Shown: piece after piece, positions 27,853-28,521 of the stretch
Layout of the letters: the number at the start of each line of letters is the position of its first letter
How positions within the stretch are numbered: position 1 is the first letter of the stretch
Assembly: GCF_045037415.1 (NCBI RefSeq)
Contig: NZ_CP173438.1
DNA length: 64,000 bases
Origin: Escherichia coli
GTDB taxonomy: Bacteria > Pseudomonadota > Gammaproteobacteria > Enterobacterales > Enterobacteriaceae
Direction: 5' to 3' (one strand)
Program-made: the position numbers and the translations under genes
Notes under the pieces: generated by a model
Databases searched by the model: none
The model's input: only the letters and a program-made list of their open reading frames with translations
Told to the model about the DNA's origin: nothing

Positions 27853-28521
27853 TCCTTCCTCAATCTTGAGTAACCCCGTCGTTGAAGGGTTACTCAATTC
27901 ATGCTGATTATACGCACTGTCATGGTGCAACTGCTTCAAATTAAAACTCTGGTCTGACTTCAAATAATTATCATATTATTTATTTGCGTAACGGGATATC
28001 AGAAAAAGATATTTACCCCATTAATTTATTAGGATGTTTACATCGGATTTGTGATTAAGTGTGGTATTATTTATTAGCGAAACGTTTCTCTCTTGATTTT
28101 TTTGCTAATTCATCAATTTTTCTTATTTTAAATTTACAATACCTTTGGAGATTGACTTCTCTTTGGGGTAATTGATACCCGTTAACTGACTGTTTTATGA
28201 GAAAAAGTGATATAACTTTTTATTCATTGCATAGTAGAAAATGTGATATTGCACGCACTATGTAATAACTTCTCCCACTGGCCTGGAACAACTGAACTTA
28301 TTGAACTATGTTAGAAAATACGTCAGTTTAAGTATCTGCCTGAACTGGCAAGGTTAAGCACAATGATATATCGGCGCGTATTCCGTTGCATAAGTGTGCA
28401 AAAAAAGTGGAAGACGTATCGAGATTTGTGCGTCTGATCGAGACATGTTTAAAAATGGCTTGCCATAATTAACGTTGTATGTGATAACAGATTTCGGGTT
28501 AAACGAGGTACAGTTCTGTTT

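What the first reader, a model, noticed from the sequence alone, without database searches (positions are those of the whole stretch)
27853..28521. Long AT-rich non-coding region upstream of yobF-cspC
About 670 bp without a long ORF, strongly AT-rich with A/T tracts (e.g. 28000-28200). This is consistent with a long 5' UTR or promoter region and nucleoid-protein binding, and is large enough to hide an unannotated small RNA or peptide. One 18-codon frame at about 27901 was noted but has no support.
Basis: seen in the sequence. Interest (0 to 1): 0.25.

Follow-up and report, generated by a model that had tools for sequence, protein, structure and literature searches.

The report
Control region of the yobF-cspC operon
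The long AT-rich gap upstream of yobF-cspC in E. coli is real, but it is mainly an already mapped two-promoter control region plus a stretch of lineage-specific filler DNA, with no convincing hidden gene.

Summary
Positions 27853-28521 are exactly the 669-bp yebO-yobF gap. It is the largest gap in 50 kb, has 34.7% GC (window mean 49.6%), and has no annotated feature.

The gap is a composite:
- A yebO terminator hairpin, with a published 3' end at 27900/1.
- About 170 bp of Escherichia-only AT-rich filler. About 34 of the 78 related genomes examined carry a 331-aa metallo-beta-lactamase-fold gene at this position.
- About 450 bp of control DNA with islands conserved across 20 genera.

Published maps explain most islands:
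- P1 has its start 26 nt upstream of yobF.
- P2 has its start at 28320, giving a 202-nt leader.
- A CRP site sits about 70 bp upstream of P2.
- H-NS and sigma-factor binding have been reported.
- OxyS pairing near the ribosome site is published; CyaR regulates yobF.
- An RNA 3' end lies at 28397.

The long-5'-UTR idea holds only for 202 nt. The peptide idea fails: the ATG at 27901 is ATC in K-12. A structured small RNA is not supported.

One island is unexplained. Distal island A (28076-28140) carries a palindrome one mismatch from the rbsD operator, and in other genera a Pho-box-like promoter.

Verdict: ordinary and largely known. Interest is low.

The parts
27853..27901 (+). yebO 3' UTR with terminator-type hairpin (stem arms 27866-27876 and 27887-27897). 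The mgrB-yebO mRNA 3' end is at 27900/27901.
   Evidence: Perfect 11-bp inverted repeat. Fold energy is -15.5 kcal/mol with z -3.0. The Term-seq 'primary yebO' 3' end at K-12 1908212/3 maps to 27901/27900.
27902..28072 (.). Escherichia-specific AT-rich filler (about 31% GC). Many other Enterobacteriaceae carry a 331-aa MBL-fold gene at this position. Probably the H-NS-bound part.
   Evidence: Homology is found only in E. albertii (75%); no other of the 77 loci matches. Majority conservation is 0.25. The MBL-fold gene (PF12706) lies between yebO and yobF in about 34 loci. Remnants survive in three Buttiauxella genomes but none in E. coli. H-NS flag is from PMC3946193.
28076..28091 (.). LacI-family-type palindrome AGCGAAACGTTTCTCT. 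It differs by one base from the 16-bp core of the palindrome upstream of rbsD. Whether RbsR binds it is untested.
   Evidence: It is the only match with 3 or fewer mismatches in 64 kb. The region upstream of K-12 rbsD holds tCAGCGAAACGTTTCGCTGa. The core GAAACGTTT is present in 61 of 77 loci, and the 16-mer is identical in Salmonella and Citrobacter.
28076..28140 (+). Distal conserved island A. It runs: palindrome, then a direct-repeat box (28107-28124; Pho-box-like in other genera, degenerate in E. coli), then 10 bp, then a -10-like TACAAT (28135-28140). Possible third promoter (P3); function unknown.
   Evidence: Majority conservation is 0.75 over 63 nt in 20 genera, against 0.25-0.42 background. 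The box is the best Pho-consensus match in the whole 6-kb locus in more than 50 of 78 loci, with 2-4 mismatches. Real phoA and phoB boxes show 2 mismatches. The geometry matches phoA. No TSS is listed here in K-12.
28213..28257 (.). Island B plus CRP site. The CRP core TGTGAtattgcACGCA is at 28242-28257, centred about 70.5 bp upstream of the P2 start.
   Evidence: The Footprint-seq CRP site agTGCGTgcaataTCACAttt is assigned to yobF. yobF is listed among CRP genomic-SELEX targets. Conservation is shown.
28283..28320 (+). Distal promoter P2 (yobFp2): -35-like CTGGAA at 28283-28288, -10 (C)TATGTT at 28306-28312, TSS at 28320.
   Evidence: A published K-12 TSS gives a 202-nt leader, and its upstream 51-mer equals window 28270-28320. 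The family consensus is CTGGA...GCTATGGTAAAAA. Conservation stops at the TSS. The Salmonella TSS lies 172-181 nt upstream of transposon insertions in the 5' UTR. An RpoS-holoenzyme SELEX peak maps near 28369.
28320..28521 (+). 202-nt leader of P2 transcripts. Its first about 65 nt vary in sequence between genera.
   Evidence: Folding is not unusual: z -0.77 in E. coli and mean z -0.67 across 77 loci against -0.05 for a control segment.
28386..28401 (+). Island D palindrome TTGCA-N6-TGCAA, containing an abundant stationary-phase RNA 3' end at 28397.
   Evidence: A Term-seq 'orphan' 3' end at K-12 1907716 lies 125 nt upstream of yobF, with 264,852 reads, and appears in one of three condition sheets. 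Conserved as GCGCATAAnTGTGCA.
28422..28459 (.). Nearly invariant element upstream of P1 (TTTGTGCGnCnGATCGAGACA plus an A/T-rich UP-like TTTAAAAA). The binding factor is unknown.
   Evidence: Majority conservation is 0.94 across 20 genera.
28460..28497 (+). Proximal promoter P1 (yobFp1): -35 TTGCCA at 28460-28465, 17-bp spacer, extended -10 TGtGATAAC at 28480-28488, TSS at 28496/28497.
   Evidence: TSS at -25/-26 by 5' RACE and 454 sequencing, with 249 reads and K-12 1907615-8. Promoter hexamers are listed. TTGCCA is present in 77 of 77 loci and TGTGATAAC in 75 of 77.
28496..28521 (+). 26-nt P1 leader with Shine-Dalgarno GAGG (28505-28508). Site of OxyS pairing. yobF is also a listed CyaR target, though the pairing site is not given in the papers I could read.
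   Evidence: PMC10965054 and PMC5861431. The sequence is invariant across genera.

Best explanation
The 669-bp gap is a composite of three things, not one element.

1. 27853-27901 is the 3' end of the mgrB-yebO transcript. It ends just after an 11-bp hairpin.

2. 27902-28072 is fast-evolving, AT-rich DNA found only in Escherichia. Many other Enterobacteriaceae carry a metallo-beta-lactamase-fold gene at this position. This stretch gives the region its extreme AT content and is the likeliest H-NS substrate (inferred).

3. 28073-28521 is the control region of yobF-cspC, conserved across the family.
- P1 is a sigma-70 promoter with an extended -10. It starts transcription 26 nt upstream of yobF. 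OxyS pairs with this short leader near the ribosome-binding site, and CyaR also regulates yobF.
- P2 starts at 28320 and gives a 202-nt leader.
- P2 has a weak -35, a sigma-S-like -10 (C at -13) and a CRP site about 70 bp upstream. I therefore infer that it is the stationary-phase or carbon-limitation promoter.
- Some P2 transcripts end at 28397, upstream of P1. The cause is unknown; it could be processing, pausing or a roadblock at the invariant P1 upstream element.
- A further conserved island, 380-445 bp upstream of yobF, carries a LacI-family palindrome and in other genera a Pho-box-type promoter. In E. coli its role is unknown and the box has decayed.

Shown: the coordinates, composition, conservation pattern, hairpin and motif matches.
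From papers: the transcript starts and 3' ends, CRP, H-NS and sigma-factor binding, and sRNA regulation of yobF.
Inferred: the sigma factor of P2, the origin of the 28397 end, and any function of island A.
For: Gap limits and rank.
Composition.
yebO hairpin and 3' end.
Synteny and MBL-fold gene presence or absence in 80 loci.
The non-coding stretch upstream of yobF is 485-546 bp even where the MBL-fold gene is present.
Conservation islands.
P1 TSS.
P2 TSS. Salmonella long leader.
CRP.
Multiple RpoD peaks and H-NS. RpoS peak. RpoN peak.
Internal 3' end at 28397.
sRNA regulation of yobF.
Against: - No direct data here link P2 to sigma-S or to CRP activation. The CRP site's second half is weak (ACGCA).
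- The H-NS evidence is a single flag in a published SELEX table.
- About 35-40% of the gap (27902-28072 and 28141-28212) has no assigned role.
- Island A's strong conservation is not explained by any published site.
- A yobF upstream fragment gave no reporter activity in one study under low-Mg2+ and control conditions.
- An in vitro sigma-S run-off signal for this gap is labelled '-f', which may mean the opposite strand.
Confidence: 0.85

Rival explanations
1. The gap hides an independent small RNA gene. P2 would drive a 78-nt RNA (28320-28397) that accumulates in stationary phase and acts in trans.
For: The TSS at 28320 and an abundant 3' end at 28397 seen in only one of three conditions. That end lies upstream of P1, so it cannot come from P1. 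Adams et al. show that 5'-UTR-derived sRNAs arise this way.
Against: - No intrinsic terminator: the end falls inside a 5-bp hairpin and is followed by an A-run.
- Folding is no better than for shuffled sequence (z +0.25).
- The body (28321-28385) is poorly conserved (0.40).
- No Rfam match and no annotation in K-12.
- The same promoter also gives the full-length 202-nt leader in E. coli and Salmonella.
Confidence: 0.1
2. The gap encodes an unannotated small protein, for example the 18-codon frame at 27901 or the 38-codon frame at 28059-28175.
For: Several 18-38-codon frames exist. The neighbourhood is rich in real small proteins (MgrB, YobF, YobH).
Against: - The ATG at 27901 is ATC in K-12.
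- 27853-28072 has no homologue outside Escherichia.
- The 38-codon frame spans island A, where the alignment has indels of 2 and 4 nt between genera.
- The conserved antisense frame 28354-28560 mirrors the invariant DNA of P1 and yobF, and then diverges in length.
- K-12 RefSeq, which carries many ribosome-profiling-derived small ORFs elsewhere in the genome, annotates none here.
Confidence: 0.03
3. The whole AT-rich gap is non-functional: horizontally acquired or decayed DNA, such as a dead gene, silenced by H-NS.
For: The left 220 bp is lineage-specific and AT-rich. A gene does occupy this position in other genera, and N-terminal remnants persist in three Buttiauxella genomes.
Against: - A profile HMM of the MBL-fold gene finds nothing in the E. 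coli gap in six frames, even at E of 100 or less.
- The right 450 bp contains islands conserved in 20 genera and two mapped promoters.
- The non-coding stretch upstream of yobF stays about 500 bp long even where the MBL-fold gene is present.
Confidence: 0.05

Closest known systems
Long multi-promoter type-B spacers of E. coli, such as the 847-bp mngB-cydA spacer (Shimada et al. 2014, PMC3946193)
   Same: A long gap between co-directional genes, several RNA polymerase binding peaks, more than one promoter for the downstream operon, and H-NS binding. The same paper names the 670-bp yobF spacer as an example.
   Different: Only two starts are mapped here, against five promoters for cydAB. About a quarter of the gap is lineage-specific filler rather than control DNA.
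cspA-family mRNA leader (Rfam RF01766, cspA thermoregulator)
   Same: The family model matches 28502-28962 at 135.6 bits against a threshold of 78. cspC is a cspA paralogue.
   Different: The match begins only 20 nt before yobF and covers yobF plus cspC, not the AT-rich gap. The part that is a 5' UTR in cspA aligns poorly and is occupied here by the yobF ORF.
5'-UTR-derived RNAs and premature 3' ends mapped by Term-seq (Adams et al. 2021, PMC7815308)
   Same: A 3' end 125 nt upstream of the ORF, inside a leader, listed in their 'upstream ORF' table.
   Different: It was not characterised by those authors. There is no terminator, no Rho data for that condition, and no evidence of function.
rbsD operator (RbsR) and Pho-box promoters such as phoA
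   Same: The 16-mer at 28076-28091 matches the rbsD palindrome at 15 of 16 positions. In other genera the adjacent box matches the Pho consensus as well as the real phoA and phoB boxes do, with phoA-like spacing to a -10.
   Different: The palindrome lies far from any mapped start: about 236 bp upstream of P2 and about 412 bp upstream of P1. The E. coli box has 7 of 18 mismatches. No binding or TSS data exist.

Membership tests
Sigma-70 promoter region (yobFp1) | -35 and -10 hexamers with 16-18 bp spacing, upstream of a mapped start | tested here: met
   TTGCCA-17-GATAAC with an upstream TG, and a TSS 7-8 nt downstream. Invariant in 75-77 of 77 loci.
Distal promoter with long leader (yobFp2) | A mapped 5' end with a conserved -10 and conservation ending at the start | tested here: met
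   TSS at 28320. Consensus GCTATGGT. The island ends at 28322. Salmonella has a TSS of the same type.
Class I CRP-dependent promoter | A CRP site (TGTGA-N6-TCACA) centred near -61.5, -72.5 or similar, and CRP dependence | tested here: inconclusive
   The site TGTGA-N6-ACGCA is centred about -70.5 from P2. Binding in vitro is published. CRP dependence of transcription was not tested.
Small regulatory RNA gene | Own promoter | tested here: met
   P2 TSS at 28320.
Small regulatory RNA gene | Intrinsic terminator or defined stable 3' end | tested here: not met
   No hairpin followed by a U-tract was found in the scan. The 3' end at 28397 lies inside a weak hairpin and is followed by A7.
Small regulatory RNA gene | Conserved sequence or structure, or membership of an Rfam family | tested here: not met
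   Body conservation is 0.40. Folding z is +0.25 and the family-wide mean is z -0.67. No Rfam match at E of 1 or less.
Small protein gene | ORF with start codon and frame conserved in relatives | tested here: not met
   The ATG at 27901 is ATC in K-12. Indels break the frame, and the left part has no homology elsewhere.
RbsR (LacI-family) operator | 16-bp palindrome AGCGAAACGTTTCGCT | tested here: met
   15 of 16 positions match. It is the only hit with 3 or fewer mismatches in 64 kb. The rbsD reference was read.
RbsR (LacI-family) operator | Bound by RbsR and placed so as to affect a promoter | not testable with these tools
   No binding data were accessible. The site is about 236 bp upstream of the P2 start.
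PhoB-dependent promoter (Pho box) | 18-bp 7-4-7 direct repeat CTGTCATAWAWCTGTCAY lying 10 bp upstream of a -10 | tested here: not met
   E. coli has AATTCATCAATTTTTCTT, with 7 mismatches. Other genera have 2-4 mismatches, against 2 for phoA and phoB.
H-NS-bound AT-rich region | Low GC with A/T tracts, and measured H-NS binding | tested here: inconclusive
   GC is 29-32% over 27900-28300. The H-NS evidence is only a flag in a published table. No ChIP data were examined.
Pseudogene remnant of the MBL-fold gene | Detectable protein-level similarity in any frame | tested here: not met
   tblastn and a profile HMM with filters off find nothing in the E. coli gap. Remnants are found in three Buttiauxella genomes.

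The most novel reading that the evidence does not exclude
Distal island A (28076-28140) is a working control module that nobody has described. It would be a third promoter or upstream activating site for yobF-cspC.

Its input changed during evolution. Most genera have a Pho-box-type response-regulator site. In Escherichia, Salmonella and Citrobacter that box has decayed, while an RbsR-type operator has become nearly perfect (15 of 16).

If RbsR binds there, ribose or nucleoside status would feed directly into CspC levels. It may also bear on a Salmonella transposon screen in which insertions in rbsR, in cspC and in the yobF-cspC leader were all recovered with the same succinate-growth phenotype.
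Probability: 0.2. Interest if true: 0.45.

Novelty: already known. Interest (0 to 1): 0.2.

Why it matters
CspC is a global RNA chaperone that affects RpoS and virulence programmes. The yobF-cspC operon is also a mutational hotspot in ageing colonies. Knowing which parts of its upstream gap are control DNA and which are filler helps in designing reporters and deletions.

The useful outputs here are:
- A coordinate map that joins scattered public data: two transcript starts, two 3' ends, the CRP site and the sigma-factor peaks.
- Evidence that roughly 450-500 bp of non-coding DNA upstream of yobF is retained across the family.
- One unexplained conserved island with testable transcription-factor candidates.

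None of this changes the general picture of bacterial promoter regions.

Tried and rejected
- Rfam at permissive threshold over 26500-29500 gave only the cspA thermoregulator over yobF-cspC and nothing in the gap.
- The consensus promoter and terminator scan gave counts no higher than shuffles and missed both real promoters' weak hexamers.
- There are no tandem repeats. Dispersed repeats are short A/T-rich matches, apart from the yebO hairpin and the palindromes.
- tblastn and a profile HMM for MBL-fold gene remnants in the E. coli gap were negative.
- Folding tests of the P2 leader and the putative 78-nt RNA were unremarkable.
- I considered reading island C as the T-tract of a minus-strand terminator. 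I dropped this once a plus-strand TSS was found at its edge.
- I considered sigma-54, sigma-E and sigma-32 readings of island C, and ArcA, PmrA, PhoP and marbox readings of island A, by eye. None fitted as well as the Pho and LacI-type motifs. These are recollections of consensus sequences, not tests.
- Literature searches for a named sRNA, or for PhoB links to this gap, found nothing.

Full report
**What the window is.** The window is E. coli. It is 100% identical to strain SK1144 over 27700-28700, and 5,423 of 5,426 complete genomes hold this stretch. The gene order on the plus strand is kdgR, yobH (minus strand), mgrB, yebO (27565-27852), yobF (28522-28665), cspC (28678-28887), rlmA.

- The finding's coordinates are exactly the 669-bp yebO-yobF gap.
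- It is the largest gap in the first 50 kb of the window.
- GC is 34.7% overall and 31.4% over 27900-28300, against a mean of 49.6%. Only 1.3% of 200-bp windows are this AT-rich.
- Neither K-12 RefSeq nor PGAP annotates anything in it.

**Published maps, placed on window coordinates.** K-12 and the window both have a 669-bp gap with 11 substitutions and no indels. This gives an exact conversion: w = 1936113 - x for NC_000913.3.
- *P1.* Two studies place a yobF start 25-26 nt upstream of the ATG (window 28496/7). It has -35 TTGCCA and an extended -10 TGtGATAAC.
- *P2.* Kim et al. 2012 list a second start with a 202-nt leader. Its upstream 51-mer is window 28270-28320, so the start is at 28320. 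A 2026 paper cites EcoCyc promoters yobFp1 and yobFp2.
- *Salmonella.* The SalCom start lies 172-181 nt upstream of transposon insertions that are still in the 5' UTR. This means the distal type of start is used there as well.
- *3' ends.* Term-seq (Adams et al. 2021) gives the yebO 3' end at 27900/1, just after a perfect 11-bp hairpin (z -3.0). It also gives an abundant 'orphan' 3' end at 28397, 125 nt upstream of yobF, in one of three conditions. By its position in the file, that condition is probably the LB OD 2.0 sheet.
- *CRP.* A Footprint-seq preprint reports a CRP site whose core is 28242-28257. An earlier SELEX study lists yobF as a CRP target.
- *RNA polymerase and H-NS.* Genomic SELEX reports several RpoD peaks in 'the 670 bp spacer' and flags H-NS there. 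An RpoS peak maps near 28369 and an RpoN peak near 28485.
- *Small RNAs.* OxyS pairs near the yobF ribosome site. yobF is also a listed CyaR target.

**Comparative analysis.** I anchored on YobF and collected 80 loci from about 20 genera of Enterobacteriaceae. The order kdgR-yobH-mgrB-yebO-...-yobF-cspC is kept everywhere.
- About 34 loci carry a 331-aa metallo-beta-lactamase-fold gene (PF12706) between yebO and yobF.
- Both states occur within Enterobacter and within Buttiauxella. Three Buttiauxella genomes that lack the gene keep its first 40-50 codons. The gene is therefore probably ancestral and was lost repeatedly.
- E. coli keeps no detectable trace of it.
- The non-coding stretch upstream of yobF is 485-546 bp even where this gene is present, and 588-794 bp where it is absent. 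A long upstream region is thus a family trait.
- The left 220 bp of the E. coli gap has a homologue only in E. albertii.

**Conservation profile.** Using one representative per genus, conservation is sharply patchy. Values are majority fractions.

| Segment | Coordinates | Conservation | Explanation |
|---|---|---|---|
| Background | 27853-28072 | 0.25 | lineage-specific filler |
| Island A | 28076-28138 | 0.75 | not explained by any paper I could read |
| Island B | 28221-28239 | 0.67 | adjoins the CRP site |
| Island C | 28282-28322 | 0.72-0.77 | P2; ends exactly at the P2 start |
| Variable stretches | 28141-28212 and 28321-28385 | about 0.40 | none assigned |
| Island D | 28386-28401 | not scored (below the island cutoff); seen in the alignment | holds the 28397 end |
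| Island E | 28422 onward | 0.94 | P1 and an invariant upstream element |

The P2 consensus GCTATGGTAAA has the C at -13 typical of sigma-S promoters. Together with the RpoS peak, the CRP site about 70 bp upstream and the condition-specific 3' end, this suggests a stationary-phase or carbon-limitation promoter. That is inference, not demonstration.

**Island A.** It begins with AGCGAAACGTTTCTCT.
- I recalled that the rbs operator is this palindrome and checked it. K-12 has tCAGCGAAACGTTTCGCTGa just upstream of rbsD.
- The window 16-mer differs from it at one position and is the only match with 3 or fewer mismatches in 64 kb.
- It is identical in Salmonella and Citrobacter. The core GAAACGTTT is present in 61 of 77 loci.
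- Next comes a direct-repeat box whose family consensus is CTGTCATTAAACTTTCAT. This has 2-4 mismatches to the Pho-box consensus and is the best match in the whole 6-kb locus in more than 50 of 78 loci.
- Genuine phoA and phoB boxes also show 2 mismatches. The spacing of 10 bp to a -10 matches phoA.
- In E. coli the box has 7 mismatches, although a TACAAT sits at the right place (28135-28140). No K-12 start is listed there.
- I therefore treat island A as a conserved distal module of unknown function in E. coli.

**Hidden genes.**
- The ATG of the 18-codon frame at 27901 is ATC in K-12. Other frames are broken by indels or lie in non-conserved DNA.
- The candidate 78-nt RNA (28320-28397) has no terminator, folds no better than shuffled sequence (z +0.25), has a variable body and has no Rfam match.
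- Across 77 loci the first 65 nt of the P2 leader fold only slightly better than chance: mean z is -0.67, against -0.05 for a control segment.
- It may be a processing or roadblock product. A function cannot be excluded, but nothing points to one.

**Verdict.** The feature is real, but it is an ordinary and largely already mapped control region plus lineage-specific filler.

Noticed in passing
L003-L082, about 3363-5395 (downstream of cspC); window 28888-29052: Most other Enterobacteriaceae carry about 1.9-2 kb of extra DNA between cspC and rlmA. Escherichia, Kluyvera, Siccibacter, Franconibacter and Atlantibacter lack it. I did not examine its content.
   Followed up: no
L023:1484-2479 and equivalents; corresponds to window about 27902-28072: A 331-aa MBL-fold gene (PF12706, HNHYDH motif) lies between yebO and yobF in about 34 of 78 loci. 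N-terminal remnants survive in three Buttiauxella genomes that lack it, and there is no trace in E. coli.
   Followed up: yes
window 28502-28962: The Rfam cspA thermoregulator model matches across yobF plus cspC at 135.6 bits. The yobF ORF sits where cspA has its 5' UTR, and that part aligns poorly.
   Followed up: partly
window 28221-28239 and 28386-28401: A TGCAT-N5-TGCA(T/A) motif recurs in island B (family consensus TGCATAnnTATGCA) and island D (TTGCATAAGTGTGCAA). I could not assign a transcription factor.
   Followed up: partly
window 28422-28459: The element TTTGTGCGnCnGATCGAGACA upstream of P1 is nearly invariant across 20 genera and contains a GATC. It has a CRP-like left half centred about -62 from P1, but the right half is poor. 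The binding factor is unknown.
   Followed up: partly
window 28440-28469: A promoter-like GAGACA-18-CATAAT with an upstream TG overlaps the -35 of P1 and is also invariant. No start is reported for it.
   Followed up: no
window 28200-28213 and 28236-28249: A direct repeat AGAAAA(A/T)GTGATAT places a second CRP-half-site-like copy 36 bp upstream of the published CRP site.
   Followed up: no
window 30575-30952, 42093-42460, 59643-60301: Three other stretches have GC of 32% or less per 200 bp. The first two coincide with the mntP-yobD (428 bp) and yoaC-yoaB (421 bp) gaps.
   Followed up: no
window 28678-28887: PGAP labels this cspC gene 'cspE' in most RefSeq E. coli genomes, whereas K-12 calls it cspC.
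   Followed up: no
Salmonella 4/74 (literature); window 28076-28091: A Salmonella transposon screen recovered insertions in rbsR, in cspC and in the yobF-cspC 5' UTR, all with the same succinate-growth phenotype. The authors found RbsR acts indirectly on RpoS. The RbsR-like palindrome upstream of yobF-cspC is identical in Salmonella.
   Followed up: partly
window 27853-28521, minus strand: An in vitro sigma-S run-off array signal is listed as 'IG1905616_1906284-f'. The '-f' may mean the strand opposite to yobF. A minus-strand promoter-like site lies at 28002-27975. The strand and any in vivo relevance are unresolved.
   Followed up: no
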